Shown piece after piece: positions 15,262 to 40,686 of a DNA stretch of 64,000 bases. Origin of the DNA: Nemertoderma westbladi (Eukaryota; Animalia; Xenacoelomorpha); NCBI GenBank assembly GCA_032718475.1, contig JAUCBJ010008124.1:1-64000 (forward strand), in the 5' to 3' direction. The notes beneath the pieces were generated by a model, which was given only the letters and a program-made list of their open reading frames with translations, was not told the DNA's origin and made no database searches. Each line of letters begins with the position of its first letter. Within the stretch, counting starts at the first letter, position 1. Both the position numbers and the translations under genes were made by a program.

Positions 15262-15714
15262 GTAAAGATGATAAAAAAATAAAGTATTGAGGGTCTTTAG
15301 CTGGTTATATTATATTAGATAAAGATACAATAGTAAACGTTTTCGACCTACCGGTCTGCATCAGACTATGTACTGGCAACTAACAGGAAAAGGTAGGGGT
15401 CTATATATATATATATCTAAGTTTTAAAGGGGAATACCTGATAGGTGAATCCCAGAAAGGTTAACGTATATGTATGTACTGTATAACGTAAGGTAATTGT
15501 GATAGGGAAAGTACAGCGAGTTAGTTGTAAGCTGTCCATCTAAAGTACAAATATAGGGTTGCAGGTTGGGTTATAAGGTTGGGAGAAGTTGATAGGGACA
15601 TAATAGTTGATAGGGGATAATATAACCAGCTAAAGACCCTCAATACTTTATTTTTTTATCATCTTTACACTATGCTGCCGCTGGTGAATGCCTACCACTT
15701 CATCCGTTCGTTTA
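15262..15714. mobile_element. Penelope-like retroelement remnant (inverted pseudo-LTR arrangement)
   Basis: Flanked by 12-bp direct repeat CTATCCCATTAT (15250-15261, 15715-15726). Perfect 52-bp inverted repeat (15261-15312 / 15618-15669) with a ~45-bp extension on one side. Contains a hammerhead-like motif. Confidence 0.8.
15326..15372 (-). ncRNA. Minimal type I hammerhead ribozyme motif (core variant)
   Basis: Minus strand: UACAUAGU-CUGAUGCA-GACC GGUA GGUC-GAA-AACGUU-U-ACUAUUGUA. Stem I, 4-bp stem II and palindromic stem III, as in Penelope hammerheads. Confidence 0.7.
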
Positions 15715-15726
15715 CTATCCCATTAT

Positions 15727-17134
15727 AGTAGACATGTACCGAACAACAAGAGTCCCACAAGAAATGAAAACAAATAAGTTGGTGCCAGTTCCCAAGAAGG
15801 GCAACCTAACACTCTATGGTTCTTTTCGGGGAATCTCATTGATCTTGATTGCTGCAAAGCTATACAATACGATTCTATTAAATCGCATCCGCGATCACAT
15901 TGAGAGACTGCTCCGTGGAAATCAGAATGGTTTCCGTAAAGGTCGTGGGACCATGGAGCCCATTTTGGCACTTATAAGGATAATTGAAGAGTTATCAAAA
16001 AAGAAAGACAGGCACCTGGCTGTTATCTTTGTTGACTTCTTCAAGGCCTCCCGCTCACGTATGTTCAGCATACTTTCATTATATGGGACTCCTGATGAAA
16101 TTATTGCAGCAATCAGATCAGTATACGATGGTTTGACAACATTTGTGTCTACTGTTGATGGTGACACAGAACCATTTGAAGTGTTATGGGGCGTCCTCCA
16201 GGGAGACACACTAGCACCATTCTTGTTCATAATTGTGGTTGACTATGTTCTACGCATGTCCTTAGATGATCATAATGATGATAGGGTAATGTTAACTCCA
16301 CCTACTGGCTCCAGAATTCGAGGAAATCTTGCCAAGTACCTAACTGATCTAGACTTTGCTTAAGACTTAGGAGTACTCTAAGAATCACTAGAGGGAGTCC
16401 AACGGCTCCTCAGCTCATTAGAACATGCTGCTTCTAGTGTTGGTCTTTTTATTAACTCCAGAAAGACCAAAATTTTGACAGTTAACTTTGAAAGTTCTCA
16501 GCAAGTCTCTGATCGGATGAGCATAAGCTCAAAGGATGGTATGCTTGAGCATGTGGACGACTTCTGTTACCTGGGATCATGGATCCGGAAGTCAGGTGAG
16601 GACATTCGAATAGGTAAGGGAATGGCATGGGCAGCCTTGAATAGGCTTTCCAGGATTTGGAAGTCACCGATAATTAATCGGAAACTTAAGGTCCATTTAA
16701 TTTGAGATGCAGTAGTTCCAGTACTCCTCTATGGGAGTCCATGCTGGGCTCTAACTGCTGAGGACACCAAATCTCTGGACGGCACATTCACAAGAATGCT
16801 ACGCCGGGCTCATTGTGTCAAGTACAATGCACACATCTCCAACCAGACACTATATAACATTGGAGGTGTCTCATTGGTTCCCCCAAGCTTGACACTAGAA
16901 CAAAATCGCCTCCGCTTTGCAGGACATTGCTTTTGCCGTGAGGACCAGCCAGTGCATAATCTTGTACTTTGGCAGCCTCATGGAGTGAATAAGTATGGTG
17001 GACAGCCCATGACTTTCTTGAGACGCATCTTAAAGGACACTGGCCTTGAAGATGCGGATGATCTAGCAAATGTCATGGGTGATAGGGCGTTGTGGCGGCG
17101 CAATTTTGTCGACAAGCCGGCACAGCATTCTTAA
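15727..17134 (+). pseudogene. LINE ORF, reverse transcriptase and C-terminal part, with in-frame stops
   Basis: ORFs 15734..16363, 16475..16705 and 16796..17134 share one frame. The catalytic FADD is mutated to FA*D. Confidence 0.9.
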
Positions 17135-22330: not shown

Positions 22331-23247
22331 GGAGACCTGGAACACCAAGGCCACCAAAGCCGCAGAGACCTGGAACACCAAGGCCACCAAAGCCGCAGAG
22401 ACTTGGAACACAAAGGCCACCAAAGCCGCAAGACCTGGAACACCAAGGCCACCAAAGCCGCAGAGACCTGGAACACCAAGGCCACCAAAGCCGCAGAGAC
22501 CTGGAACACCAAGGCCACCATAGCCGCAGAGACCAGGAACACCAAGGCCACCAAGGCCGCAGAGACCTGGAACACCAAGGCCACCAAAGCCGCAGAGGCC
22601 TGGTACACCAAGGCCACCAAAGCCGCAGAGACCAGGAACACCGAGGCCACCAAAGCCGCAGAGACCAGCAACACCGAGGCCACTAAAGCCGCAGAGACCT
22701 GGAACACCAAGGCCACCAAAGCCGCAGAGACCTGGAACACCAAGGCCACCAAAGCCGCAGAGACCTGGAACACCAAGGCCACCAAAGCCGCAGAGACCTG
22801 GAACACCAAGGCCACCAAAGCCGCAGAGGCCTGGTACACCAAGGCCACCAAAGCCGCAGAGACCAGGAACACCGAGGCCACCAAAGCCGCAGAGACCAGG
22901 AACACCGAGGCCACTAAAGCCGCAGAGACCTGGTACACCAAGGCCACCAAAGCCGCAGAGACCAGGAACACCGAGGCCACCAAGGCCGCAGAGACCTGGA
23001 ACACCAAGGCCACCAAAGCTGCAGAGGCCTGGTACACCAAGGCCACCAAAGCCGCAGAGACCAGGAACACCGAGGCCACCAAAGCCGCAGAGACCAGGAA
23101 CACCGAGGCCACTAAAGCAGCAGAGACCTGGAACACCAAGAGCACCAAAGCCGCAGAGACCAGGAACACCGAGGCCACCAAGGCCGCAGAGACCTGGAAC
23201 ACCAAGGCCACCAAAGCCGCAGAGGCCTGGAACACCAAGGCCACCAA
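22331..23247. repeat. 33-bp GC-rich satellite, left part
   Basis: Unit GAGACCTGGAACACCAAGGCCACCAAAGCCGCA, cut by the Copia insertion. Confidence 0.97.
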
Positions 23248-23457
23248 TGTTAGATTAGGCCTAAGGCCTAGTAGGCTACCGGACTAACTGATACATAGAT
23301 TTAACCGGTACTTGGTGTTGGTAGAATATATTAACATATATTATAACATAATAACATATATTATATACCGGTACTTTATAGTCTGGGCATGGAGCCTAAT
23401 ATAGAAGTTATTTGATTATAAACAAACTTATATTTTGCCAAATACTAATCATTAACA
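23248..23457 (+). repeat. Copia 5' LTR (210 bp)
   Basis: TG..CA ends; matches 28015-28190 + 40653-40686 with one mismatch. Confidence 0.97.
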
Positions 23458-23459
23458 TT

Positions 23460-23477
23460 TGGTAGCAGAGCGTGGTT
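23460..23477 (+). promoter_or_regulatory. Primer-binding site, initiator tRNA-Met
   Basis: TGGTAGCAGAGCGTGGTT, 2 nt after the LTR. TGGTAGCAGAG is complementary to the animal tRNAiMet 3' end and typical of GalEa. Confidence 0.9.
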
Positions 23478-23480
23478 GAA

Positions 23481-26400
23481 ATGGCGATGTCCTCTTCAAC
23501 AGCTTCCGATCGATCTACTTCTTCATACAAGGCTCCTCCCCAATTACGAGATGGCGTTTCATACGAAATTTGGAAGAAGGAAGTCAGTGCTTGGAAACAC
23601 TTTACGGATATTAGGGCCGATAAACAAGGAACTGCGCTCGCTCTAAGCCTCAGTGGTAAGGCTAGAGATGCAGCTTTTGAACTAGAACTCGCCCAATTAA
23701 ATTCTGCTGGAGGGCTTGATTTGGTCATCCAAAAACTCGATTCGTTATACGAACTAAGTCGTCCATTGGTGATCTTCCAGGCAATAAACTCATTTATAAA
23801 GTTCCGGCGCCCAGCTGACATGTCAATGGTTGATTATCTTATAGAGTTTGAACGACTTTATAATAAATGTAAAATGTATAACCTGAATTTTCCCGAAGAA
23901 TTTCTCGCCTACCAACTTCTTGAATGTGCGAGTTTATCGGAAGCAGATTCCCACCTTGCACGAGCGTCAGTCAATGAGTTTACTTACAAGGATATGAAGT
24001 TACAAATTACCCGTATACATGGTGACTCCCGAATATCCGGAGAATCAAATAACAGTGATACTATGAATATTAAGGTTGAACCAACATTTCCAGCTGTTCA
24101 CACAACGGAGCCTATATTCGAGGAAGAATATTATCAAGACTATAATGACGGCTATCAGTGGAATGAACCAAATCCCCATGAAGAAGATGTTTATTATACC
24201 TACCGTGGCCCATTCCGTGGTGGATATAACAATAGAGGGCCAAGACGAAGTGGTAATTATTATCGAAGCTTTAAACAACGATTCCCCAGACAACAACCAG
24301 GTCGAGTAGCAAATTTAAGACGACATTATGGTGGAATAGGAAGTACAAGTACAAGTAAAATTAATCCTTTGGATTATGATGGAAAACCCAGTGGTTGCTC
24401 CGTTTGCCATTCTATTTACCACTGGGCAGCCAACTGTCCAGAACTTCCACAAGAGGAGGATTGTAAAATTACACTATTTACAGATAAAGATATCCATCCT
24501 GATACCGAGTTATTTGGAGAAACCATTGGTTGTGCCATTATTGATTGTGGTTGTACGGCAACAGTATGTGGAAAGAGTTGGGTTGCGATTTATATAGACA
24601 GTCTGAATGGGTCTGATCAAAGATTGGTTAAAAAAACTCCGAGCTCAACTGTATTTAAATTTGGAGATGGAAATCGGAATGTTTCTTTATATAAATTAGA
24701 AATTCCAATATATATTGGTTCAAGAAAAATTTTTCTAGTAACAGATGTGGTTGATTGTGAAATCCCTTTACTTTTCTCACAGCCCAGTCTAAAGAAAGCT
24801 AAAGCAGTTATCAATTTTAAAAATGATACTGTGACAATGTTCGGAGAACCACAAAAGGTTATGGTTACAAAAACTGGCCATTATTGTTTGACCCTTTCTA
24901 GATCTATGAATCCTAGTAATTCCGATACTAGACGGTGTTTATTCGCTGCTCCACTTGATGAGTTGGAGGGATCTGATCTGAATAATGCAGTCTATAAACT
25001 TCATAGACAATTTGCTCATCCACATGCAGATGCATTGAAGAACTTGATAAAGACTGCTGAGTGTAAAAACCCAGAGATAATGTCTATTGTAGATGAAATA
25101 AGCAAAGAATGCAAAATATGTCGGATTTATAAGAAACCATCACCCCGCCCTGTGGTTGGATTACCAACAGCTACGCAATTTAATGAAATGGTTGGCCTCG
25201 ATTTGAAGGAATTCCGCCCTGGGGTATATTTCTTACATATGGTAGACCATGTTACACGTTATGGATCAGCTGCTGTTATTAGAAGCAAAAAGAAAGAAGT
25301 TGTAGTTGAAAAACTAATGGAATATTGGATACGAATTTTTGGGGCCCCTAAGAAATTCCTTTCTGACAATGGAGGAGAGTTCATTAACCATGAGCTAATT
25401 GAGTTAAGTGAACAATTTAATATATTAATTAAAACTACAGCTGCAGAGAGTGCTTGGTCGAATGGTTTAGTAGAGAGACATAATGGTATACTTAGTACCA
25501 TGGTGGAGAAAATCCTAGCTGATACTCCATGTAAACTCGAAATCGCAGTACATTGGGCTGTTGCTGCCAAAAACAGCTTACAGAATGTTTATGGTTATAG
25601 CCCTAATTCCTTGGTATTTGGCTGTAATCCCATAATCCCTTCCAATATGGTGAATAAACCACCAGCTCTTAGTGGACTTGGTATAAGTGACCTTATATGT
25701 GCGAATATTAAGGCCCTCCACAGTGCACGTAATGCCTACATTCAACAAGAAAGTTCAGAAAAACTACGTAGAGCATTAAATAAACAAGTACGGTCCTATA
25801 GTGATACTATTTTCCTGAATGGTGATAATGTTTATTATAAACGGAATAATTCCTCTGCTTGGAAAGGTCCAGCAAGGATTCTTGGATCTGATGGTCAACA
25901 ATTCCTAGTCAAGCATGGTGGACTTTATTATAGAGTTCACCCTTGCCGAATGACATTGGCATCGATTCCGCTAGAAGTTAAGGAAAGATCCATAGATCCA
26001 AAGAATGACAATAAGGTAAACAGTGAGGGTAAAGAAGTTGATAATAAACAGAAACGAGCCATACCAAGTGATGGAGATGATGAAACAGATGGGGAGAAAC
26101 AACCCAATAATTCCATTCCACACGATATCACAACTGCCAATAATCAAACTACTGAAAAGCCAAGTACCCAGGATGGTAAGCTGGAAATGCCTAAGACAAA
26201 TGATAATATAAAATATCAGCCAATGGGTAGTTCTGACTGGAAAACTGGAAAAGTTATAGGGAGAGCTGGAAAGGCTTCAGGAAAATATTGGCATTGCTAC
26301 AATATAAAAGATAAAATAACTGGTGATTCAAAATGTTTAAGCTTCAAGGACGACATCCAACAGTGGAATTTTGACCATGGGACAGAAGATGAAGATAAGT

Positions 26401-27878
26401 CATGCAATATTGTTTATCAGGCCAGAGATTCATTTGATCCTGTGAGGGTAAAACAGGCTATATCTGAAGAACTGCAAAAATGGAAGGATATGAACACCTA
26501 TACTGAAATTGAAAATGTTGGGCAACCTTTCATTACAACGACTTGGAATTTTGATGAACGAATTAAAGGTGGAATATTACGTCTTAAGGCAAGATTGTGT
26601 GCCAGAGGTTATGAGTGTTTTGATTCAATGCGTTCAGATTCCCCAACATGTGGTAAGGACTCTGTTAGAATTGGCCTTGTCATTATTACATCTAATAAAT
26701 GGAGGTTGAACACAATGGATATAAAGAGTGCATTCCTGCAAGGGCTTGATGTTGACAGAGATTTATTTATAAAGCCTCCAAAAGAGGCACTTACCAACAA
26801 GCTTTGGAGGTTGAATAAATGCGTATATGGTTTAAGTGAGGCTGGTAGACAGTGGTACTTAAAACTAGAACAAACCTTAAAGTCTGTTGGTATGGTAAAG
26901 TCTAAATATGACCCTGCGTTATTTTTTTATCATTATCAAGAACTTCTTCAAGGTATTATCTGCTGTCATGTCGACGACATCCTATGGGGAGGTACTGACA
27001 TATTTGTTCAACAAATAATCACTAAATTGCGCAAAGAGTTCCTTATAAGTACTGAGGAAAATACAATGTTGAAATATGTTGGTTTAAATCTAAAGCAAAG
27101 TAATAATGTCATATCACTTGACTTAAATGACTATATACGTAATACCGAAGGAGTGAAAGTCGATTCTAAGCGTCCTAAAGATAGTGCTTTAACACAGAAG
27201 GAAATTGCTGACCTTCGGAGTTTTTGTGGGAAACTCAACTGGATAGTTAGCCAATCTCGACCTGATTGCTTCTTTGAATCTTGTTACTTAGCCTGCATTG
27301 CCCGGAAAGGAACTGTGAAAGACTTGTATTATGCTAATAAGACATTAACAAAATTAAAGAATACAGAATGTATTTTATGTTATCCTGAGATTGGTAATTT
27401 ATCTAAATCATACATTGTCATATATACTGATGCCAGTTTTGGAAATCTTCCCGATTCAGGTTCTCAGGCAGGCTATATTGCATTTCTAGTTGGTGAGAAT
27501 GGTCATTGTGCTCCAATTAGCTGGAAGAGCCATCGTATACGACGAGTAGTGAAGAGTACATTGGCAGCGGAAGCTCTTGCATGTTCTGCAGCCTGTGAGG
27601 ATGCATATGCTTTGTCTTGCACTGTATCAGAAATTATAAATACTAAACATACACCAGTATATGTCCTAACTGATAACCAATCATTGGTAGATGCTATTGA
27701 CTCTTCAAAGCCGGTTATTGAGAAACGACTTCGACTCGAGATTGCTGTACTCAAGGAAATGGTTGATAAAGGGGAAGTCGATGGATTAACCTGGGTTCCA
27801 ACATACAATCAACTTGCGGATTGTTTAACTAAACAAGTAGCAGTCAATATACGACTGCTAAACTTATTGGTATTTTGA
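23481..27878 (+). CDS. gag-pol: Copia Gag-Pol polyprotein (1465 aa from first ATG), uninterrupted
   Basis: CCHC knuckle CSVCHSIYHWAANC; protease IDCGC; integrase HRQFAH..CKIC, LDL, SDNGGEF, ERHN; RT KARLCARG, DIKSAFLQG, VYGL, HVDD; RNase H YTDASF, TDN, QLADCLTK. Confidence 0.96.
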   Translation: MAMSSSTASDRSTSSYKAPPQLRDGVSYEIWKKEVSAWKHFTDIRADKQGTALALSLSGKARDAAFELELAQLNSAGGLDLVIQKLDSLYELSRPLVIFQAINSFIKFRRPADMSMVDYLIEFERLYNKCKMYNLNFPEEFLAYQLLECASLSEADSHLARASVNEFTYKDMKLQITRIHGDSRISGESNNSDTMNIKVEPTFPAVHTTEPIFEEEYYQDYNDGYQWNEPNPHEEDVYYTYRGPFRGGYNNRGPRRSGNYYRSFKQRFPRQQPGRVANLRRHYGGIGSTSTSKINPLDYDGKPSGCSVCHSIYHWAANCPELPQEEDCKITLFTDKDIHPDTELFGETIGCAIIDCGCTATVCGKSWVAIYIDSLNGSDQRLVKKTPSSTVFKFGDGNRNVSLYKLEIPIYIGSRKIFLVTDVVDCEIPLLFSQPSLKKAKAVINFKNDTVTMFGEPQKVMVTKTGHYCLTLSRSMNPSNSDTRRCLFAAPLDELEGSDLNNAVYKLHRQFAHPHADALKNLIKTAECKNPEIMSIVDEISKECKICRIYKKPSPRPVVGLPTATQFNEMVGLDLKEFRPGVYFLHMVDHVTRYGSAAVIRSKKKEVVVEKLMEYWIRIFGAPKKFLSDNGGEFINHELIELSEQFNILIKTTAAESAWSNGLVERHNGILSTMVEKILADTPCKLEIAVHWAVAAKNSLQNVYGYSPNSLVFGCNPIIPSNMVNKPPALSGLGISDLICANIKALHSARNAYIQQESSEKLRRALNKQVRSYSDTIFLNGDNVYYKRNNSSAWKGPARILGSDGQQFLVKHGGLYYRVHPCRMTLASIPLEVKERSIDPKNDNKVNSEGKEVDNKQKRAIPSDGDDETDGEKQPNNSIPHDITTANNQTTEKPSTQDGKLEMPKTNDNIKYQPMGSSDWKTGKVIGRAGKASGKYWHCYNIKDKITGDSKCLSFKDDIQQWNFDHGTEDEDKSCNIVYQARDSFDPVRVKQAISEELQKWKDMNTYTEIENVGQPFITTTWNFDERIKGGILRLKARLCARGYECFDSMRSDSPTCGKDSVRIGLVIITSNKWRLNTMDIKSAFLQGLDVDRDLFIKPPKEALTNKLWRLNKCVYGLSEAGRQWYLKLEQTLKSVGMVKSKYDPALFFYHYQELLQGIICCHVDDILWGGTDIFVQQIITKLRKEFLISTEENTMLKYVGLNLKQSNNVISLDLNDYIRNTEGVKVDSKRPKDSALTQKEIADLRSFCGKLNWIVSQSRPDCFFESCYLACIARKGTVKDLYYANKTLTKLKNTECILCYPEIGNLSKSYIVIYTDASFGNLPDSGSQAGYIAFLVGENGHCAPISWKSHRIRRVVKSTLAAEALACSAACEDAYALSCTVSEIINTKHTPVYVLTDNQSLVDAIDSSKPVIEKRLRLEIAVLKEMVDKGEVDGLTWVPTYNQLADCLTKQVAVNIRLLNLLVF

Positions 27879-27998
27879 ATGGAAACATATATTTCGATAA
27901 ACTAAACAACACTATGTTAAATATTGCCAAGGACCACAAATATTAAATAACTTAATACTTGCAACGATGAAGGATCAAAAGTGGTTTGTTTTACAAAT

Positions 27999-28013
27999 AG
28001 AAAGAAAGTGAGA
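27999..28013 (+). promoter_or_regulatory. Copia polypurine tract
   Basis: AGAAAGAAAGTGAGA just before the 3' LTR start at 28015. Confidence 0.8.
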
Positions 28014-28014
28014 T

Positions 28015-28190
28015 TGTTAAATTAGGCCTAAGGCCTAGTAGGCTACCGGACTAACTGATACATAGATTTAACCGGTACTTGGTGTTGGTAGAATATATTA
28101 ACATATATTATAACATAATAACATATATTATATACCGGTACTTTATAGTCTGGGCATGGAGCCTAATATAGAAGTTATTTGATTATAAAC
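28015..28190 (+). repeat. Copia 3' LTR, first part
   Basis: Identical to the 5' LTR except position 6 (G/A); interrupted after ..GATTATAAAC. Confidence 0.97.
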
Positions 28191-28736
28191 TGTTAGCTTA
28201 TTCAATCCCGCTAACACCCCATAAAGTTTAGCCGATAAGCAATATTGGGAGCCACGAGATTGGGTAATTAACCAACTCGTGCCATCCCAATAAGAATGGG
28301 AAGGAAACACACAATGAGGGTCAGGGGCCAAACCCCTAACCCAGAGAGAACAGGTGGAGTGAACGGGAACACTCCAAAGGGCGCCAACAAGGGTATCAAC
28401 CAATCAGAGGGGGGAAAGGCATCGATTAGGTAGAGTAACAAGGCCAACCGTGCAATATAGCCACTTGGCAGTAATCATATCAATTCAGTTATCTCAGTGC
28501 AATACTGGTGCTAGTTTAGGTTACATAGTTTAGCTAGGGAAGGACCGGGACTTTAGTTACCGTATCCCGCCTTCCGTGTACAACAACAATATTATCTCAT
28601 ATCTATATCTGTATCTATATCTCTATACCCAAACATTATATACGACGAACAGCACAAACTCATTCACTCTTTACACACGGCGGGGACGCGTAAACTAACA
28701 ACGGATAAACCGGGATCCCTCTTGGATCCCGTCACA
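28191..28736 (+). repeat. BEL/Pao 5' LTR (546 bp)
   Basis: Matches 40102-40647 with 13 substitutions by eye. Initiator-like TCAGTT at 28485-28490. Confidence 0.97.
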
Positions 28737-28819
28737 GTAACTAAAACCGAGCTGCTGCCCTAGTTAAACTGTAACAACTGCTGCCCTAGCTAGCTGAACT
28801 CCACCGATCACCAACCGAG

Positions 28820-31800
28820 ATGAGTCAGTCGGGAGAGATAACACCGACGCGGACCCCGGACGAAGAGCTAACGATCCGCGAGGCCGCAACCAGGCGATAC
28901 AGGCCCACAACGCCGGACCCATCGGTAACGGGTCATCCGGCAGTTCAGGACGAGGGGGGCCTGGAACCCGAGGTCGAGCCGAGAGGAAGAGAGAGCGAGA
29001 CGGAGGGAGACGGAGACGAGTCGACACGGGACGGGGGTCGACGCACCGGTGTCGCCGGCCAGCCACAGGCCGAGGGCGACGAGCGGCCCACCGAAACGGC
29101 GACGGTGGGGCCGACGGTGCGGCCCCGGACGCAGAGAGACGAAGGAGATATCGGTACCGATGTCGCCGGCCAGCCACAGGCCGAGGGCGACGGACGGCCC
29201 ACCGGAACGGCGACGGTGGGGCCGCCGGTACGACGTCGAACCCGGAGAGACGGACGAGAGGTCGGCGACGAGGACGTCGGGGTTTCTGAGCGACTTCGAC
29301 GGGCCTACAACGCGACCCGGAGACTACTAGACGAGGCCAGAAAGGGGAAGACGATAGACGAGGTAAAACTAAAGTCAGGACTAGGTAAGTCGGACAGACA
29401 TTTATATTATCTGATGCGCTTCGGGCAGAGAGAACTAGCCGAGGAGAGAGCGAAAGGGGTTGCCAGTGAACTGTTCGAACTATGGGAATGTGGGAGTATG
29501 GAACCTAGCGTAGCGTCAGTGTACATAGGGCCATACTTGGTCGATGCCCGGGGTATAAAATTAGTGGGTTGGAACAGACCTGAAGGGGGCGAATCCGAGG
29601 TTAACCCCGAGGATTCGGCCTCGTCGGTCGGAGGAAGTTCCGGGAAGCGGGGGAAAGTTAGTAGGACGGGGAGGCGAAGGGAGTCCGTCGTGACCGATAA
29701 GTCTGCTACATCCTCCGCGAAAGAAAGACTGGTGAGAGAGGCAGGTGCCGCGTACCGTCTCGAGCTGATAGAGCAAGGTCAGAGGGAAATGGATAAACGG
29801 CTAGAGGAGGGGAGAATGCGGCTAGAGAGGGAAGCGGCATTGATTAGAGAAACCGGAGAGAAGGCCGAAAGGGCTTTGAGAAGCCTTAGGGAGTATGATG
29901 AAATAGAGTTGAAGGAACAAGAGGAGCGTGTGGCAAGAGAGAAAAGTGAACGCGAGAAACGTGAGGTGAGAGAGAAAAGTGAACGCAAGGAGCGTGAGGC
30001 GAAGTGGGAAAGTGAACGAAAGGAACGTGAGGCGGAACGCGAGAAACGTGAGGCGAGGGAGGAAAGTGAACGAAAGGAACGTGAGGCGGAACGCGAGAAA
30101 CGTGAGGCGAGGGAGGAAAGTGAACGCAGAGAGCGTGAAGCGAGACGAAGGGAGAGCGCTAGGAGAGTAGCAGAGTTGGCTGGCCAGGACGCGCGGGAGT
30201 GTGAGAGGAGAATGGCAGAAGCTGAGCGAGAGCAAAAGGAATTAGAGAGACGCCAAAGTGAGCTTTCGGAACATAGGATTAGACGCGCGCACGAGTTGCA
30301 AATGGTGCGGGCGGGGGCGTCTGAGAGCGAGACTGGCTCGAGTATTTTAGAGGAGCCAGGGGCCGTGGATGCATTTATTAATACCCCACTTACAGGGACC
30401 GCACGACAGACCCAAAACTGGTGTGACCGTACGGGCGGGGGGGGGGGGGGGGGGGGGGGGTAATAATGATAATGGTACAGTAGACGTGGTTAATATTAAT
30501 AGTACCGTATGGGATAATTCTAATCAAACCTTTATTGCAGGAAATACTTTACCTAGTGGTAGTAATTTAAATTTAAATCAGAACAATCCTAATGTTAATG
30601 TAGAAAATAATTCTAATAATGTGGTTATACAAAGTAATCCAAATAATTTAAATAATAGCCCGAATTCGAACCTACAAAATAATTTAAGTAACGCAATTAC
30701 GCAAAATAATCCAAATAATTTAAATAATGATCCAAGCCCGAATTTACAAAATAATTCAGATAGTGTAGTCGCGCAAGATAATTCAAATGATTTTATTTCG
30801 AACGAACAAATTAATTCCGTTTCCAATACGGGTGCTATTAATGTAAACACGTCGGGCGTGTATGGCCAGACAGATGGGGCCCTGGTAGGCCACGTAGTTA
30901 GTAGGCCGGAAGTAGCTGGGTTAGGTAGACCCGGCGAGGGCCTGGTAGGCCACGTAGTTGGTAGGCAGGGAGTGGCTGGGTTAGGTAGACCCGGCGAGGG
31001 CCTGGTAGGCCACGTAGTTGGTAGGCAGGGAGTGGCTGGGTTGAATAGACCCAGCGAGGGCCTGGTAGGCCACATAGTCGGTAGGCAGGGAGCAGAGGGC
31101 CTGGTAGGCCACGCAATAGCAGAGAGAGAGGCGGGGGTGAATAGACCCGACCGCGGTAGGGTTGATGTGTCGACTAGAGAGGGATATAGTAGCGGGATGA
31201 GAGATAGCGAAGTTAGATGTGGCGAGTGGGGGGGGGGGGGGGGCTACGAGAGCCCCACAACAGCGAGTTAGCGGCGAAAGGGGGGGGGGGCAGAGAGTGT
31301 CCCACAGCCGTCAGCGGATAATGCGAGGGCCGAAATAGGTAAACCGCAACAACCGGCAACGGAAAGTAATAGGGGGATTGCGAGTATCCCCAGCGGCGTG
31401 CGACCGAGCAGAGAGAGACAGGTTGACGTCGTAAGAGGGCGGACGAAGCGTTGAGCCCGATCAGAAGAGGGAAGAAGAACAGTGGGGTTTAACCGGGAGG
31501 TCGACGAGAGATCTCACGAATGGGAATATTCCACTGAAAGGAGAAGAAGAGAAGACAGTAGTAGAAGTATCGCCGCGAACGATAGAAGAGCGAGGACGGA
31601 TAGCGAGCCGTCGGTAGTCGAGATGAGAACGGAGAGTCAGTGGGGTCGGACTCCGGGAGATTGCCGTCGCCCCGGAGAGATGCGACCCGGTGAGGTGCAT
31701 TGCGCGCCAACGAGAGCAGTAGAGGAGGGGGTCGAAGAGAAACTTTCCGACGGAATATACCTACCGATCGAGAGTACGGTAGCCACGGGGAGGACTATTC

Positions 31801-33331
31801 GAGAAGAATAAACTTCGATCCCAAGCGACACATGCAGACTGCAGGACATACTGTAGGCCTTACTGCACATACCATAGGCCATACTGAGAGAGGCAATGTA
31901 GGGGATAGGATGGCGCGGACAACGGGATTAAACCCGGAAGTCGCGGAATACATACCGGCGAGTAGGCCAGAAGCTGATAGGCCTATACCGGTACCAGTAC
32001 AGCAGTATGACTACAGCATGCAGGGACATAACATATACCCAGGGGAGGGGGGAATTATTGCGGATAGGTGTATGGGCCCCAACATATTAACATCAACCCC
32101 ATTACCAAACATACCGGCGGGGGGGGGGGGGGGGCAGGGTGACATTCCCCCATCACAATATCAACAATATACCCTGATAGGAGCAAGAACAACGAGACCC
32201 TTAGATGAAAACAGGTCGTGTGACACAGAAATATGGAGGGGGCCGCTACCTCCGATGACATACCCAAGTCAGAGAAGATCAAGAAATAGGACGGACGAAC
32301 CGCGCCAGACAGGAGAAACTATACAGCACCCGTCGAATCCATTGGAAGCGCAGGCGATGGGGATGGCCACGTTGATCGATGCGTTGAAAACGAGGATCGA
32401 GCTACCACCCGTGGAACCATTCAAATTCGATGGGAGTAGGCCGGAAGAATATCTACAGTTTCGGCGCATGTATAGTAACGAAATACTAACAAAAAACTTG
32501 ACGCAGGCGGAGTGCCTAAAGTATCTGCAAGTATATACGGGAGGCCCAGCATACGATATCATGAGGCAATATCAAGGAATAGAGGGCGGCTTCACGACAG
32601 CATGGCGGGCACTGGATAGGGAATACGGGCACCCGGCCAAGATCATCAGGCAGACGCTGAGGGGCATAACATCGGGTGGCCTACAGGATAATCCCGTTAG
32701 CATTAAGACGTTCGCTAACAAAGTCGAAAAGGCGCTGATCGTGCTGAAGACGCTAGACGCGCCATACGAGCTCAATGCGTCCAATAACATCACCACGATA
32801 GCGCAGGCACTACCGAGTTGGATGCGCAACAAGTGGAGGAAAATTGCTTTCTCCACTCGAGACAAGAAGGGTGCGGAACCGGGTTTAGAAGAAATGTCAA
32901 ACTTCTTAAACTACGAGGCTGAGCTAATAACTGACCCAGTCTACAGCGAAGATAGCCTGGGAAAGGGACCGAAGACGGAATACCATAGACCGAAACCAGA
33001 GCACAATACATCAAACGCATTACCGAGGCTCAGGCAATCATTTCCATATGCAGCGACGCAGGGGACTGCAAGTCCACAGCTAGCCGAAGATGAGACAACA
33101 CCATGGAACGGACAGGGGAACAATAACAGCACGAATAAACATAACCCCAGTACGTCCAGTAGGCTGAATCCAAACAATAAGAATAGTAGGGACTTTGGTA
33201 CGAACGCAACTGCGATACGCAATGCGCTGTATAAAGAGGGCTACGACCCAAAGAGCAAATGCCAGCTACACGCAAATGCGCTTCATCAAACCATGAACTG
33301 CAGGTACTGCTACCTAGGCAAGATCAGATAG
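28820..33331 (+). pseudogene. gag: BEL/Pao gag region with very long low-complexity N-terminal extension, broken into several ORFs
   Basis: ORFs 28820..30463 (E/R coiled coil), 30369..31271 (Asn-rich, 20-aa repeats) and 31700..33331 (ELPPVEPFKFDG..L..EYG Pao Gag core, first knuckle). Several breaks fall at long G homopolymers. Confidence 0.8.
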
Positions 33332-36300
33332 ATTATGCGTTGAGCAATAATATCTGCTCGCGATGTGTAATGAGTGGACATAGAGCAAGGGAGTGCAAGG
33401 AGAAGCCGACAAAATTTGGTCAGAGAAGAGGCCAAACGATGGCGACGAGCACAGTAGGAGCGAAGAAGAGAGGAACGGTGCTACTTGGAGTAGTACCCGT
33501 GCGAGTGATTGGGGAAGGCAATCGATCAATAACAACGCTAATGCTGGTTGATAGTGGAGCTGCCTTCACATTAGTCGAGGAATGGGTGGCCGAAGAGATA
33601 GGATTGAGAACGAGGCCAAGCAGAATGGCGGTAACAACCATCTCTAGCAAAGATGAGATCCTAGAGATGAGGACAGGACGGTGCGCAATTGCAGCAGTGG
33701 CACCAGGATGCGATTATGGGGCAACCATCGACCCCATCCAAGTAATAGAGTCAATTAACATCAATGCCAGGCGGCCAACCAACATCGAGGTCGAGCAATA
33801 CAAATTCCTGGACGACATTGACTTCTCGATCCCAGACGTGTACGTTAGGAAGGTATCCATCATAGTAGGAATGGACTGCCCGACGGCCCACGAAAGAATG
33901 CAAACGGTCTTCGGCGAAGACAAGCAGAGTGACCCGGTGGCCATACTAACACCATTCGGGTGGACGCTGAGTGGTCCAATTAAGAGCAAGATACCATTCA
34001 GGATGTCGGAGACATCAGGATGCATGTTCGCGGGAACAATGCAGGAAATGGGTGATGAGGGAGCAGAGGAGCAGCTTAAAAGACTGCTCAGACAAGACTT
34101 TGAGGGACTGAAAGAGACCGGGGTCGGGACCTCGGTAGAAGACAAGCAGGCTCTACAAAGCGTGGAGGAATCGATGACGTGTGATGAGGGGCGGTATACA
34201 ATAGGAATGGTATGGAAACTACCGAAGATACCGCTACCCGATAATAGAGGGATGGTACTCACGAGACTCCGCAAGCTGAAACAAACACTAAAACGGAGCC
34301 CCGAGAAGAATGAGTACATCCACAGGACGATTAAGAAGTACGTCGAGAAAGGATGGGCCGTGGAGTTACCGGTCGACGAGCCGAACACGGACAGGACATA
34401 TTACCTGCCACTACACGTGGCCATAGACCCAAAGAAAGGTAAACTACGGATGGTAGTCGACGCATCGGCAAAGACAGACGGAAAATGCTTAAACGATTAC
34501 CTGTTAGAAGGCCCAAACATATACAATTCGGGCATAGAGGTGCTACTTAGATTTCGAAATGGGAAACACGCCTTCACGTGTGACATAGAAGGCATGTTCA
34601 ACCAAGTCCGTGTAACGGAAGAAGATAGCGACAGTCAACGCTTCATATGGTATAACGGCGAGGAAGAACCGCCGATAATACCAGCATATAAGATGGTAGT
34701 ACAGAACATGGGGGCCAAGTCGTCTTCATTTACGACGACTATGGCAGTGAGAGACACAGTGAAAGGGAAGGAAGATAGATACAGCAGTAGGGCCGTCGAT
34801 ATGATTCGATGTGGCTTCTACATAGACGACGGAATTGAATCTGGAAATACGGTTAAAGAAATACTGGACACAGGGCGCGAGGTTCGCGACATCCTAAAAG
34901 GATCCGGTTTTAACCTGACCAAATTCCAATCCAGTTCGGAAGAATTTATCAAGGCGATAGAGGACAAGAGGCCAGAATCGACCATGGATAATCCCACAAT
35001 GGCCAAAGGGCAGGACATGGCGATTAAAAGAACAGAATCTCAACAGAAGGCGTTGGGAATCGTGTGGGATAGAGAGACAGACGAACTTAAATATCAGCTG
35101 AGCCAGGAGGGCGCAGACATCCACACGAAGAGGGGCTATGTATCGTATATAGCAAGGATATACGATCCCCTAGGCCTAGCATCCCCATTATTAGTCACGG
35201 GGAAACAGATACTCAAAAGATTATACAAATTGAAGGATGAGTGGGACGTAGAGGTACCAGAGGAAATCAAGAAGCAGTGGAGCAAGTGGACAAGAGACTT
35301 GGAGAAGATGGGAACATACAACATGCCTCGAGTGTATTTCCTGGATGGGAACATGACGAGTCTGGACCTACACATGTTCTCCGATGCGTCGTTGGAGGCG
35401 TACGGAGCGGCACTCTATTTAGTACAACGAGAGGGGGCTCATAAGCCCAGACTAGCCTTTAGCAAAGCAAAGTCAACGCCGCCAGATTCAGCATCAGTTC
35501 CCAAGTTAGAATTGACAGCTGCGAGACTAGGAGTTAGAGCCACAGCCTACCTAGTGGATACTATTCCCAACATAGTGGAGACACACTACTGGACGGACTC
35601 CATGGTAGTGCTTGGTTGGCTACATAACGAAAGGACGAGATACCCGATATTCGTCGCAAATAGAGTGGACGAAATAAGGGCGACCACAGAACTGGAAAGG
35701 TGGCACTACTGCCCAACAGACGAGAACCCAGCGGACTTGCTGTCGAGGGGCGTAGAACGCCACACTTTCCTGAAGAAGGAAGTATTGTGGCAGCATGGGC
35801 CACAATTTCTGAGCGATAAGGAGGCCTGGCCGCCGATGAGAAAGGTGGATCCGGGCTCAGAAGTGGTATCAGAAGGAGAAGAGGGAGATTCAGAGGGAGA
35901 AGAGATATACTCCCAGATGGTGAGGGAGATTAGGGACGTGCAACCAGGACGAGAACTGTGCGATAACCCGACGGATAAACTCCTCAGCTACAGTTCTAGT
36001 TGGTATAAGACCAAGAAACTAGTGGCGTACTGGAGAGCCTTCGGGAATTTCCTTGCGGGAGTCGGCAAGGACAAGAAGATCAGGACAACCATAGATCTGG
36101 AAGGAGCGGCCAAGGCAGTGATCCGCTATGAACAACGGAAGAACTATGGCGACGAGGTGGAACGCGTCGGTAACCAACAGCACCTCCGACGGGACAGCGA
36201 GTTGATTACGCTGTCGCCACAACTCAATGACGACGGGATTCTAGTAATGAATTCTAGGGTGGGATACAACAATAGCATAGTCGTACCACCGAAACCCATC

Positions 36301-37459
36301 ATCATTCCTACAGGATCGCCAATAGTCCACCAGATTATCTGGGACTTCCCATAAGTCGATATTGCACGGGGGCACCAACCGAACCCTCACAGAGATAAGG
36401 AGGACCTATTGGGTCAAACAATTAAGGAAGAAGGTTAAAGCGGTAGTGGGGCAGTGCCAGACCTGCCGACGAGCGAAGAAGGAGCGAGCCGTACAGGAGA
36501 TGGCGCCACTACCGGCGAGTAGGGTAAGACAGCACGACCCGCCATTTACGCATTGCGGTGTGGACATGTTCGGGCCGATAAAGATCAAAGTGATGCGACA
36601 CACGGAGAAACGCTACGGCATCATCTTCGTATGCAACAACACACGGGCGGTAGGGATAGAACTCGCCCAAGATGCAACTGCATCAGCATTCATTAATGCC
36701 TTAGAAAGGTTTAGGGACTGCAAAGGTGGGACGATCGCAGTGATATACAGCGACAACGGCACCAACTTTGTGGGCGCAGAGAGTGAGATGGCAGAGGCCT
36801 TGGACATCTTGGAGGGAGAAGAAGTCAGGGCAGCCATGAGGCGACGACAAGTAAAGTGGGAGAGAAGGACGCCGTATGCACCACATACACTAGGGTGCGT
36901 CGAGAGACTGGTGGGCAGTTCAAAGCATCTAATGACGAAGCTAATGAACACCCACATGGTCACTGAGGACGTCTTACGGACAGTACTTGCGAAGTGCGAG
37001 GGGATCATTAATAGCAGACCGCTATATCCGGAGAATGATGACCCTGATTCGTTAGACGTGCTGACGCCTAGCCATTTCCTGATGGAAAGGCCAGCGACCA
37101 TCGATATGCGGGGTGTAGACCCAGATGACATACACTCCCGCCAAAGTTGGAAAGTCGCTAAAGCAATAAGCGCAGAGTATTGGAGGAGGTGGGTAGAAGA
37201 ATACCTACCCACGCTCCATAAGCGAAGCAAGTGGAGGAAGCCGAACAGGGAGTTAAGAGTAGGAGATCTCGTAATCGTTACGGATGATACTATCATCAAC
37301 AACCAGTGGCGGTTGGCGAGAGTTGTAGGCACCTACTCCGATGAGGACGGAAGAGTCCGATCGGTAGAAGTGCGGATAGGTGGTAAGATAGGTGCGAAGG
37401 ACAGGAAAACCTACAGGAGAGCAGTAGGCAAATGCTGTCTGCTAGAAGGAGCACCTTAA
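33259..37459 (+). pseudogene. pol: BEL/Pao pol (PR, RT, RNase H, IN) with a frameshift near 36350
   Basis: Knuckle CSRCVMSGHRAREC; protease LVDSGA; RT DIEGMF, FYIDD; RNase H FSDAS; integrase HGG..CQTC, VDMFGP, SDNGTNF, ERL. An extra C in GACTTCCCATAAG breaks ..DFHKSILHGG... Confidence 0.93.
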
Positions 37460-37579
37460 CTTGGAGTTAGAGTAGAGTTTAGTCGTCCAAGATTTGGACT
37501 GAGGGGGGTGGGATTGAGGGCGAGACGCCCTTCCCACACAAATAAAATAAAAACAAAATAAAAATAATAAGTACACAGT

Positions 37580-38105
37580 AGGTACGCAGTTAGTAGGCAG
37601 AGGTTAGTTAAGAGGTACGTAGTACCTAGTTAGTTAGTTAGTTAGGAGGTACGTAGTACTGATAGTTAGTTAGAGAGTTAGAGGGTACGTAGTACCGATA
37701 GTTAGTTAGTTAGTTAGGAGGTACGTAGTACCGTTAGTTAGAGAAGAGTTAGAGGGTATGTAGTACCGTTAGTTAGAGGAGAGTTAGAGGGTACGTAAGT
37801 ACCGTTAGTTAGTTAGAGAGTTAGAGGGTACGTAAGTACCGTTAGTTAGTTAGAGAGTTAGAGTGTACGTAGTACCGTTAGAGTAGAGTTAGAGTTAGGG
37901 TACGTAGTACCGTTAGTTAGAGAAGAGTTAGAGGGTACGTAGTACCGTTAGTTAGAGGAGAGTTAGAGGGTACGTAGTACCATTAGTTAGAGAAGAGTTA
38001 GAGGGTACGTAGTACCGTTAGTTAGAGGAGAGTTAGAGGGTACGTAGTACCGTTAGTTAGAGAAGAGTTAGAGTTAGAGGGTATGTAGTACCGTTAGTTA
38101 GAGAG
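37580..38105 (+). repeat. ~39-bp degenerate minisatellite inside the BEL 3' region
   Basis: Unit approximately GAGTTAGAGGGTACGTAGTACCGTTAGTTAGAG(A/G)A, each with a GGTAC-GTA-GTACC hairpin. Confidence 0.9.
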
Positions 38106-38369
38106 AGAGAGTAAGTGGTAGAAGGGTATATAAGATATAGATATTAGTTAGCAGTTAGTAGCGTTAGTAGCGAGAGGGGGGCATATGAGTACAGCTGGGT
38201 AAATCGTGTGGCCACACGACGCACACTGCTGTACTGCATAGGCCCACAGAGTAGGCCAGAATGTGGATTAGGGAATAGAATAATCAATAGGAAGCAGTAA
38301 GGTAGTAGGATTGAAATTAAATCAAAATTAAAATTAGAATAAGAATAGGGCTAAGAAGGGGAACAAATT

Positions 38370-39420
38370 ATGGTAACAGTAGTAAGAATAGGCAATAACT
38401 CAGAAATTCAGAAAGAGATAGGCCATCGAACTGAACTTAAACCACCTAAACCCATCACTCATCACGTTTGCGCCTTGGCAAGGCACCACCTACGGGTGAG
38501 CGATCGGGCAGAGTTCGAGATGGCAGGTAAACTTGTGAGAGCGGAGAGAAGCAGAGGAGAGGGAGGAGGAAGCTAGGGCGCAGAGCTACGGCTTCGAGGA
38601 ATAAGCAGCCTTAGACGAACTTCGTTGGGCTTCGTCAGGGAGTTCGGGGGAGTCTCTAGGGAAAGAACTGGGGTGGACGGTGGGATCACCGAAACAGTCG
38701 ACGTCGGGATTGCAAGCGATGCCCATACCAGCGGGCGCCGAGGGCGAACAACCGCAAAAGAAGTTAAGGGAGTTGGAGGGATGGAGAGCTACGGGCGAGA
38801 GCCAAGGCGGGAAGGGACATAGTGGGTCCACCGGGATACCGGGGTTGGGACCACTGCGAGAGGAGGACGAGGACGACGACGAATTCGGAGAGATGCCGCC
38901 CATCGAGAGGATAGGCCACTCGGACACGGACTGGGTTGGCGGGAGGGTGGTGACGGCCAGTGGGGCGAGAGCCTTCTGGGACAAACCCGGCAAGCGGGCC
39001 TGGGTGCACGAGGAGCCGGCGATGGATTTCGCGGGGAGCACTATCAGGTTGGGCAAGCAACCGGGGACGGCACCACGGGTAGTATTCGGAGAGACGATGC
39101 CCGGGAGGGGCGAGGAGACGTAGACAGGGACGCTAACGTCTAGAAGTTCGCCTATCAGCGATTCCACAGACCGCGGAGATCGCTTGGGATGAAAGACGAC
39201 GTGGGGCGGGAGACATTGGTACTCGGTTGCGGCTACTGTGGGAGACAGACCCACCAGGAAAGGAGCTGCTTGTACCGGTTCCAGAAAGGGACCAGCTGTC
39301 TCTACTGCCACGAGACGAGCCACAGGATGGGAGCGTGTCCACGGTTGCAGAACCGATGTCCGAAGTGCAACTTTCGGGGACACCACGGACGCCAAGGAGG
39401 GATGGACTGAGGCATTGATG
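38370..39420 (+). pseudogene. Degraded additional ORF downstream of pol with tandem CCHC zinc knuckles
   Basis: 39189..39410 encodes CGYCGRQTHQERSC, CLYCHETSHRMGAC and CPKCNFRGH. Upstream GC-rich ORF fragments at 38370 and 38680. The 5' boundary is uncertain. Confidence 0.65.
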
Positions 39421-40064
39421 TAGTGCGCCTGGAAGGCGCCACATGAGACGTGCGAACTATGTACAAATTTAATTAATGCGAATAATCATATAAGTACAAT
39501 TTGTATGTACGTACGTAGCAATCAGTAATCTACAAATATACATTCGGAGTAAGTACTATAGTCATACAACCTTTCTCAATTAGCTACTGGGACTGGGGGG
39601 TAAACTGACTATGGCACTATGGACGAGACACCAGACAATTTCACACTTCTTGAGTGCGACGGCACAAAGAGGGGGGGGGGGGGGGGAGATTCGTCGGAAG
39701 GGATGAGGTAGTCAAAGTGGGGTTGAGGGACGGAGTAGTGAGAGCGAAGTGCGGAGAGAGTGCGGACGCAATTCTAGTGTGGGGGGGGGGGGGAGAATAA
39801 GAGGCTGAGTGGGGGACGAGGAGGTCCGAGTGTATGAGAGAGTTAGGGTGAGAGTGAAGAAGAGATAGGGCGAAAGTGTTGGGGAAACAAAAGTTGCGTG
39901 AGAGGTGAGCGCGATCGGCCCGACATGAGACGCCAGGCACACAGGGTAGCGTTATCATACCCATAGGGAGCGGCCTGGAAAGCCGACTCCGAGAGAAAAG
40001 AATTCCACCCACACACCCGATACTAGATCGGGATCCAGCGGGATTGCAGCGCACTTTTTGGTTG

Positions 40065-40101
40065 ATGCTATCTTCTTACCGGGAAGATAGCATGGGGGGA
40101 G
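40065..40101 (+). promoter_or_regulatory. Hairpin plus polypurine tract of BEL element
   Basis: 11-bp stem ATGCTATCTTC/GAAGATAGCAT, then GGGGGGAG abutting the 3' LTR. Confidence 0.85.
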
Positions 40102-40647
40102 TGTTAGCTTATTCAATCCCGCTAACACCCCATAAAGTTAAGCCGATAAGCAATATTGGGAGCCACGAGTTTGGGTAATTAACCAACTCGTGCCATCCCA
40201 ATAAGAATGGGAAGGAAACACACAATGAGGGTCAGGGGCCAAACCCCTAACCCAGAGAGAATAGGTGGAGTGAACGGGAACACTCCAAAGGGCGCCAACA
40301 AGGGTATCAACCAATCAGAGGGGGGAAAGGCATCGATTAGGTAGAGTAACAAGGCCAACCGTGCAATATAGCCAGTTGGCAGTAATCATATCAATTCAGT
40401 TATCTCAGTGCAATACTGGTGCTAGTTTAGGTTACATAGTTTAGCTAGGGAAGGACCGGGACTTTAGTTACCGTATCCCGCCTTCCATATACAACAATTA
40501 TATTATCTCATATCTATACCTATATCTATATCTGTATACCCAAGCATTATATACGACGAACAGCACAAACTCATTCACTCTTTATACACGGCGGGGACGC
40601 GTAAACTAACAACGGATAAACCGGGATCCCTCTTGGATCCCGTCACA
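40102..40647 (+). repeat. BEL/Pao 3' LTR (546 bp)
   Basis: Direct repeat of 28191-28736. Confidence 0.97.
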
Positions 40648-40652
40648 TAAAC

Positions 40653-40686
40653 AAACTTATATTTTGCCAAATACTAATCATTAACA
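40653..40686 (+). repeat. Copia 3' LTR, terminal 34 bp
   Basis: AAACTTATATTTTGCCAAATACTAATCATTAACA matches the end of the 5' LTR. Confidence 0.97.

What the first reader, a model, noticed from the sequence alone, without database searches (positions are those of the whole stretch)
28484..28798. BEL/Pao element with no tRNA PBS: leader pairs with its own transcript 5' end, suggesting self-primed reverse transcription
Seen: the sequence after the 5' LTR starts GTAACTAAA, not TGG. It is the exact reverse complement of TTTAGTTAC in the LTR (28552-28560), and pairing stops at the LTR/leader boundary. Complementarity continues colinearly: CCCTAGTTAAACT with AGTTTAGCTAGGG (one G-U), GTAAC with GTTAC, CTAGC with GCTAG, and TAGCTGAA with TTCAGTTA (one G-U). 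The last block overlaps the initiator-like TCAGTT. Known: S. pombe Tf1 self-primes by pairing its mRNA 5' end to the PBS followed by cleavage; BEL/Pao elements are generally described as tRNA-primed. Inference: cleavage after C28560 would leave a ~75-nt self-primer positioned to copy U5, much longer than the 11-nt Tf1 primer. I know of no such report for BEL/Pao but could not search.
Basis: partly seen in the sequence, partly recalled or inferred. Interest (0 to 1): 0.85.

Follow-up and report, generated by a model that had tools for sequence, protein, structure and literature searches.

The report
Self-priming signature in BEL/Pao retrotransposon
A BEL/Pao jumping gene has no tRNA landing site; that spot instead pairs with the element's own terminal repeat, as it also does, with matched letter changes, in many distant relatives, so the element likely starts copying itself with a piece of its own RNA, in a group that textbooks list as tRNA-primed.

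Summary
Confirmed. A 12.5-kb BEL/Pao element (28191-40647) has no TGG in its leader. Bases 28737-28745 are the exact complement of LTR 28552-28560, flush with the LTR end (35 of 20,000 shuffles), and 26 of 34 bases pair on without a gap. No close relative was found. In distant BEL/Pao loci (29-38% identity), 10 of 11 flank-defined LTR ends are followed by GT and none by TGG. In 22 families the leader start matches a 10-14-nt stretch of the same LTR, family by family; in 21 that stretch is a predicted splice junction. This element looks like the intron-less form, with a shorter 9-bp duplex that is predicted to need the upstream helix. Best reading: Tf1-like self-priming after a cut at C28560, with a primer of about 74 nt if transcription starts at A28487. 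Start site, cut and priming are untested (no RNA data, no host tRNAs). The scan noted this idea before on other DNA, and I took the splice lead from those notes. My searches found no paper on it.

The parts
28186..28190 (+). Left target-site duplication (5 bp; repeated at 40648-40652)
28191..28736 (+). 5' LTR, 546 bp, TG...CA
   Evidence: 13 mismatches to 40102-40647
28398..28406 (+). CCAAT-box-like motif, about 87 nt before the predicted start
   Evidence: pattern recalled from general knowledge; not tested functionally
28454..28460 (+). TATA-like motif, about 30 nt before the predicted start
   Evidence: recalled pattern
28485..28490 (+). Initiator-like motif; predicted transcription start A28487
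   Evidence: inference, no RNA data; a second initiator-like motif lies at 28660
28487..28526 (+). Distal part of the predicted R region; predicted to pair with 28771-28825, including the gag AUG
   Evidence: pair probabilities 0.7-1.0
28527..28539 (+). Anchor helix arm, 13 bp with one G-U, pairs with 28758-28770; predicted to be needed for the primer duplex
   Evidence: terminal primer pair 0.82 with it, 0.03-0.06 without; no variant listed at 3% or more in family copies
28546..28551 (+). CGGGAC just upstream of the primer duplex; a GGA lies at the same place in 14 of 23 rows against 29 of 279 background 11-mers
28552..28560 (+). Predicted 3' end of the self-primer, exact complement of 28737-28745; inferred cut after C28560
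28561..28736 (+). Stretch that minus-strand strong-stop DNA would copy (176 nt); holds an 8-bp hairpin at 28711-28731 next to the LTR end; no canonical poly(A) signal in this copy
28737..28745 (+). Primer-binding site position, GT start, no TGG, offset 0
   Evidence: family variant 28741 C>T keeps a G-U pair
28737..28770 (+). Leader copy a; 26 of 34 bases complementary to 28527-28560 without a gap
28771..28800 (+). Leader copy b, a diverged tandem duplicate of copy a
   Evidence: low contig depth
28820..37459 (+). gag-pol region in five open stretches: long unannotated N-terminal part, DUF1759, protease, RT, Pao peptidase A17 domain, integrase with DUF5641
40094..40101 (+). Polypurine tract
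40102..40647 (+). 3' LTR
23248..40686 (+). Copia element into whose 3' LTR the BEL/Pao element is inserted; it has an ordinary TGG primer site and serves as internal control
   Evidence: own-LTR complement at most 6 nt

Best explanation
This BEL/Pao retrotransposon has, where a tRNA site should be, nine bases that are the exact complement of a stretch of its own LTR, and it likely primes reverse transcription with that stretch of its own RNA. Steps: (1) shown: LTR ends, no TGG, 9-nt complement flush with the LTR end, further colinear complementarity. (2) Predicted: transcription starts near A28487; the first 74 nt fold onto the leader, the 13-bp anchor helix holding the weak 9-bp duplex in place and the distal helices covering the gag AUG. 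(3) Inferred from Tf1: a nuclease, probably the element's RNase H, cuts after C28560, and RT extends that 3' end into the LTR's terminal CA and copies 176 nt to the cut. (4) Inferred: the RNA's 3' end reaches beyond the cut site in the 3' LTR, which allows strand transfer and restores the primer sequence in the progeny. (5) Inferred: plus-strand synthesis copies part of the attached primer, which would keep leader and LTR complementary as they change. Most relatives examined would assemble the same kind of primer by splicing an LTR intron; this element resembles the intron-less form.
For: Element: (35-nt extension beyond the 9 bp: z -5.3, 0 of 300 base shuffles, the strongest of 24 rows). Family copies in two samples: no variant at 3% or more is listed between 28526 and 28581, while 11 rows fall in 28589-28719; the two leader variants are a wobble-keeping change (28741 C>T, 12% and 10% of depth) and a change at the first unpaired base (28746 A>T, 47% and 36%). 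Relatives: 10 of 11 flank-defined LTR ends are followed by GT, none by TGG; the eleventh (L070) starts AT and has a 9-nt own-LTR complement. A blind scan of all CA positions ranked an ACA|GT junction first in 27 of 63 loci (22 of 46 families), 1.6 expected. Six flank-defined families score 11-13 nt, null 0-10 of 3,000 each. Own-family match 9-14 nt against a cross-family mean of 3.5; 17 different first 9-mers in 23 rows; two to four Watson-Crick pair types at each of leader positions 3-11. Donors chosen only by complementarity have G at +5 in 18 of 21, background 143 of 793. A poly(A) hexamer lies downstream of the predicted cut in 19 of 24 rows and upstream in 0 of 24. Set fetched afterwards: 3 of 4 flank-defined loci give 11 nt (null 4, 0, 0 of 500); the fourth has 10 of 11 with one mismatch (read by eye). 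One family occurs with the intron (L019) and, in one LTR, without it (L008). Tf1 precedent: PMC7175516 passages; Tf1 cDNA carries a copied PBS, PMC11042837 passages.
Against: No RNA evidence for the start site, the cut or priming. The window element is a long branch outside the clade in which covariation was seen; nearest proteins are 39% identical at best, so the covariation is not from its own lineage. Its duplex (9 nt) is shorter than all 22 others, and the blind scan did not rank its true junction first. It has no canonical poly(A) signal. The 28741 C>T variant has no listed partner change at 28556, so the site is not strictly re-templated or is decaying. The distal leader is thinly covered by family contigs (depth 646 at 28771-28797 against 10,483 and 28,692 nearby), so the long duplex may be limited to a subfamily. 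In relatives, folding puts the terminal primer pair above 0.5 in only 11 of 18 spliced forms, and in 6 of 18 unspliced forms. 13 of 35 hand-picked families gave under 10 nt and 11 of 46 had no junction picked; many of these contigs are cut short. No common TATA spacing was found in relatives.
Confidence: 0.64

Rival explanations
1. The primer is element-encoded but is not the long 5' fragment of the genomic RNA: it is a short piece trimmed at both ends, or a separate short LTR transcript (also from solo LTRs) that anneals in trans.
For: Perfect pairing stops at 9-14 nt in all 23 rows. With only the last 14 nt, the terminal pair exceeds 0.5 in most relatives. A separate spliced RNA would explain how most families keep the LTR intron in their DNA.
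Against: For this element the short piece alone is predicted not to pair (0.01; 0.03-0.06). An upstream helix reaches 13 or fewer of 300 shuffles in 9 of 24 rows.
Confidence: 0.15
2. The LTR-leader duplex of this element serves packaging, dimerisation or translational control (it covers the gag AUG), and the 9-nt match at the LTR end is part of that structure and not a primer.
For: The strongest predicted helices are the anchor and the AUG helix, not the 9-mer. The element lies outside the clade with covariation.
Against: The match is flush with the LTR end, begins with GT and follows a GGA motif, as in the relatives; no other primer site is present. The two roles are not exclusive.
Confidence: 0.1
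3. A host tRNA, tRNA fragment or other small RNA primes at this site, and the own-LTR match is incidental.
For: The ICTV profile (PMC8742986, whole text) gives an 18-nt site for tRNA-Arg or tRNA-Gly as the family rule. Half-tRNA primers exist in copia lineages (PMC6317226 passages). Host tRNAs were not available.
Against: No TGG in the leader, so a mature CCA end cannot pair. 17 different 9-mers, each matched by its own LTR, cannot come from one tRNA.
Confidence: 0.06
4. The genomic RNA ends at the position equal to 28560 in the 3' LTR, and this natural 3' end loops back and primes without a cut.
For: It needs no nuclease; this copy has no canonical poly(A) signal downstream.
Against: In relatives the poly(A) hexamer lies 6-75 nt downstream of the site in 19 of 24 rows and never in the 60 nt upstream; a poly(A) tail would block the end (general knowledge).
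Confidence: 0.05

Closest known systems
Tf1/Tf2 of Schizosaccharomyces pombe, Tj1 of S. japonicus and the Tf1/sushi group (Ty3/gypsy)
   Same: No tRNA site; the PBS is complementary to a segment of the element's own 5' LTR transcript; a cut is needed to free the 3' end (PMC7175516 and PMC4600332 passages). The commonest match length in the BEL/Pao relatives, 11 nt, equals the Tf1 primer.
   Different: Other superfamily. [quoted passage not shown] Most relatives would need splicing to make the primer, which I did not find described for Tf1.
Plant Tcn1 (Ty3/gypsy) and TAR/Houba/Osr-1 (Ty1/copia) lineages
   Same: Self-priming predicted from LTR-PBS complementarity alone (PMC6317226 passages); shows that the trait arose in more than one superfamily.
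   Different: Plant elements of other superfamilies; BEL/Pao is not among those listed in the passages read.
Belpaoviridae (BEL/Pao) as described by ICTV
   Same: Domain order PR-RT-RH-IN, DUF1759, peptidase A17 and DUF5641 domains, LTRs of 0.2-1.2 kb, PPT.
   Different: ICTV gives an 18-nt tRNA-Arg or tRNA-Gly site and 4.2-10 kb; this element has no TGG and is 12.5 kb.
Retroviral U5-AUG and U5-leader helices (recalled, not read here)
   Same: 5' sequences pair with the gag start codon region and could switch the RNA between translation and replication.
   Different: Retroviruses prime with tRNA; here the pairing strand would itself be the primer.

Membership tests
BEL/Pao (Belpaoviridae) | PR-RT-RH-IN order with BEL/Pao-specific domains | tested here: met
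   DUF1759, aspartyl protease, RVT_1, Peptidase_A17, integrase, DUF5641
BEL/Pao (Belpaoviridae) | LTRs with TG...CA, target-site duplication, PPT | tested here: met
BEL/Pao (Belpaoviridae) | 18-nt PBS complementary to a tRNA 3' end (ICTV description) | tested here: not met
   no TGG in 28737-28819; membership rests on the proteins, the description is what fails
BEL/Pao named clades (Sinbad, Suzu, Sailor, Dan, Tas and others) | RT-RH grouping with labelled references | tested here: inconclusive
   long branch, no labelled references on hand
Tf1-type self-priming (works like) | PBS next to the 5' LTR complementary to own LTR, no tRNA site | tested here: met
Tf1-type self-priming (works like) | Complementarity kept through sequence change | tested here: met
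   met in distant families; only invariance and one wobble change within the own family
Tf1-type self-priming (works like) | Primer is the very 5' end (first 11 nt) of the RNA | not testable with these tools
   no RNA reads; promoter motifs predict a start 74 nt before the cut, which would differ from Tf1
Tf1-type self-priming (works like) | RNase H cleavage of the RNA duplex and extension by RT | not testable with these tools
   needs biochemistry
Tf1/sushi group (membership) | Ty3/gypsy chromovirus-type pol | tested here: not met
   BEL/Pao domains
Splice-built primer type (relatives; earlier scan notes) | GT...AG intron inside the primer whose removal lengthens the match | tested here: not met
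   best spliced match 9 nt, no gain; purine-rich tract before the AG; no insertion or joint listed there in family contigs
Half-tRNA priming | PBS complementary to an internal tRNA segment | not testable with these tools
   no host genome; no tRNA in the window

The most novel reading that the evidence does not exclude
tRNA-independent priming is the rule in a large part of BEL/Pao. Most families build an 11-nt primer end by splicing their own LTR; this lineage has lost the intron and uses a 74-nt primer that zips up the whole leader and hides the gag AUG, so one RNA fold switches the genome from translation to reverse transcription, and the leader is rewritten from the primer at each cycle.
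Probability: 0.3. Interest if true: 0.88.

Novelty: new variant of a known kind. Interest (0 to 1): 0.74.

Why it matters
The ICTV profile describes BEL/Pao as tRNA-primed and its replication as poorly understood. A self-made primer would add a third superfamily to the list of self-priming elements, explain why PBS searches against tRNAs fail for these elements, and free them from control by tRNA fragments. In the relatives it would tie reverse transcription to host splicing. The prediction is exact (cut after C28560; splice junctions in named loci) and can be tested with RNA end mapping.

Tried and rejected
No whole genome was held, so no copy-by-copy covariation and no host tRNA set. Run search: no RNA holder listed; one run guessed as RNA (X6) covers only part of the LTR as contigs, which says nothing on expression or start site. 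Viral contigs gave no relatives in four scans; the element's own protein found nothing in genome contigs. Broad alignments meant to sample other BEL/Pao clades were too diverse for the two large collections, so all 91 loci come from one set of patterns, and the 56 metagenome families form one clade (support 0.996); no tRNA-primed BEL/Pao control was obtained. Splicing in this element's LTR: introns of 40 nt or more give at most 9 nt, a 37-nt candidate 28520-28556 gives 9 nt; rejected. A loose tRNA-type pattern hit many places but no chosen LTR end except by overlap; uninformative. LTR-LTR identity over 28487-28560 (0 of 13 mismatches) is not significant (P 0.15). Rfam: 0 matches in 28100-40800. 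Pfam: nothing for the N-terminal and 3' open stretches. TATA spacing in relatives: no common position. Dropped from the flank-defined count: L067, L028, L037, L016 and the loci whose repeat covers only the LTR start, because the repeat does not reach the LTR end. Literature: nine searches found no report of self-priming or of a splice-built primer in BEL/Pao; may have missed the spelling with a slash, and most subscription papers and Repbase reports are outside the library. Supplements were not read.

Full report
Anatomy. The finding lies in the 5' end of a BEL/Pao element at 28191-40647 (12,457 bp). The LTRs are 546 bp each with 13 mismatches, there is a 5-bp target-site duplication and a polypurine tract. 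Pfam finds DUF1759, protease, RT, Pao peptidase A17, integrase and DUF5641 in the BEL/Pao order, spread over several open stretches. The element sits inside the 3' LTR of a copia element whose own leader has an ordinary TGG site and at most 6 nt of own-LTR complement. The window is satellite-rich; no whole genome is held.

Observation. The leader starts at 28737 and has no TGG before the first ATG at 28820. Its first nine bases are the exact complement of 28552-28560; 35 of 20,000 LTR shuffles contain that 9-mer. The reverse complement of 28737-28770 matches 28527-28560 at 26 of 34 positions without a gap. The region folds at z -3.2, 0 of 100 shuffles. The leader is a tandem duplicate, which lowers the weight of the later blocks. 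A CCAAT-like, a TATA-like and an initiator-like motif at about -87, -30 and +1 point to A28487 as start (recalled patterns, inference). The terminal primer pair has probability 0.82-0.83 when the RNA starts at or before 28527 and 0.03-0.06 when it starts at 28540 or later, so the short duplex is predicted to depend on the 13-bp helix.

Own family. Three DNA runs of one organism (two samples) hold more than half of the element's words, and 940-2,143 contigs per run lie on the LTR region. On 28496-28812, the complete list of differences at 3% or more has 13 rows: none in 28526-28581, 11 in 28589-28719 and two in the leader, 28741 C>T (keeps a G-U pair) and 28746 A>T (first base after the duplex). 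One search also lists variants at 28483-28525 and 28796, in the distal pairing. The distal leader is thinly covered, so the long duplex may not be family-wide. Contigs are too short to phase LTR and leader changes, and summed depth is not copy number.

Distant relatives. No protein closer than 39% was found. Earlier notes of this scan reported the same idea in other genomes, some with an intron in the LTR; I took that as a lead and tested it. A metagenome scan returned 79 BEL/Pao loci, the best 80 of 553 confirmed stretches, in 56 families. Seven had an LTR end fixed by flanks: six are followed by GT, and L070, with LTRs 71% alike, by AT with a 9-nt own-LTR complement. A blind scan of 7,043 CA positions in 63 loci ranked an ACA|GT junction first in 27 loci (22 of 46 families); 1.6 were expected. 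Single loci are weak in that scan, because the null maximum is about 9-10 nt. I then picked junctions by eye in 35 families: 21 give 10-14 nt across a predicted GT...AG intron of 90-536 nt, one (L061) gives 11 nt contiguous, and 13 give less than 10, often on cut contigs. For the six flank-defined families the null is 0-10 of 3,000. Each leader matches its own LTR and not others (cross-family mean 3.5 nt; 24 of 506 reach 9, among families with the same leader start), with several pair types at positions 3-11 and a sharp end after position 11; these families are related, so the counts are not independent events. Donors picked only by complementarity carry G at +5 in 18 of 21 against 143 of 793 background GTs. 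L019 has the intron, and L008 of the same family has one LTR without it; this could also be an assembly chimera. A poly(A) hexamer lies downstream of the predicted cut in 19 of 24 rows and upstream in none, as strand transfer needs. Twelve more loci fetched afterwards served as a check: 4 of 4 flank-defined ends are followed by GT; three give 11 nt (null 4, 0 and 0 of 500) and L081 fails the strict rule but shows 10 of 11 pairs by eye.

Where this element stands. It shares the GT start at offset 0 and a GGA motif just before the duplex (14 of 23 rows, background 29 of 279). It gains nothing from splicing and so resembles the intron-less forms L008 and L061. Its perfect duplex is the shortest of the set and its upstream extension the strongest (z -5.3). 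It is a long branch outside the clade of those loci, so the trait is either old in BEL/Pao or arose more than once; the tree cannot tell.

Mechanism. Shown: geometry, complementarity, family-specific matching in relatives. Predicted: start at A28487, the fold, sequestering of the gag AUG, splicing in relatives. Inferred from Tf1: cut after C28560 by RNase H, extension over 176 nt, strand transfer, and copying of the primer into the new leader. Against: no RNA data; short duplex; no canonical poly(A) signal in this copy; one leader variant without a partner change; folding supports the terminal pair in only 11 of 18 spliced relatives.

Literature. ICTV profile PMC8742986 (whole text): 18-nt site for tRNA-Arg or tRNA-Gly, replication poorly understood. 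PMC7175516 (passages): Tf1 primer is the first 11 bases, cut by RNase H. PMC4600332 (passages): Tj1. PMC6317226 (passages): three primer types; self-priming in Tf1/sushi, Tcn1 and TAR. PMC11042837 (passages): about half of Tf1 cDNA keeps a copied PBS. PMC3118150 and PMC554778 (term look-ups) do not mention PBS or tRNA. PMC3601003, PMC6934838, PMC4558846, PMC3532108 and PMC5443660 (passages) report no BEL/Pao self-priming. Nine searches found no such report; the library lacks most subscription papers, and supplements were not read.

Verdict. Real and more than chance; a BEL/Pao element that likely works like Tf1 in priming without being of its group. New variant of a known mechanism; interest 0.74.

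Noticed in passing
window 23248-40686: Copia element with one 1,470-codon open frame and LTRs differing at 1 of 209 compared positions, yet it holds a BEL/Pao insertion whose LTRs differ at 13 of 546; nine of the 13 cluster in 28576-28674. The nested element should be the younger, so its LTR differences may come from recombination or conversion and not from age.
   Followed up: partly
window 28820-31694: About 2.9 kb of coding-like sequence before the DUF1759 gag domain (charged coiled-coil-like part, Asn-rich part, short repeats) with no Pfam match; unusually long for the group.
   Followed up: partly
window 37460-40093: 2.6-kb region between integrase and PPT with a 35-bp tandem array (37599-38109) and a 299-codon antisense open stretch (38586-39485) without Pfam match.
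   Followed up: partly
L008:6918-6928 and L019:137-672: One family with the LTR intron in one locus and without it in the 3' LTR of another, the 5' LTR of the latter keeping the acceptor: possible intron loss through reverse transcription, or an assembly chimera.
   Followed up: partly
L046 3' LTR, about 6597-6906: One donor can join two acceptors followed by the same five bases, both giving an 11-nt match.
   Followed up: no
L080-L091: Bacterial MAGs in the GTDB collection hold whole BEL/Pao contigs, most likely animal host DNA binned by mistake.
   Followed up: no
window 14192-16363: Fragments of a non-LTR element (endonuclease and RT domains) with a 53-bp inverted repeat at 15261-15313 / 15617-15669.
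   Followed up: no
window 22332-23247 and 40687-43373: The copia element interrupts a 33-bp tandem array that is open in several frames; further satellites of 56, 40, 30 and 52 bp fill most of the window.
   Followed up: no
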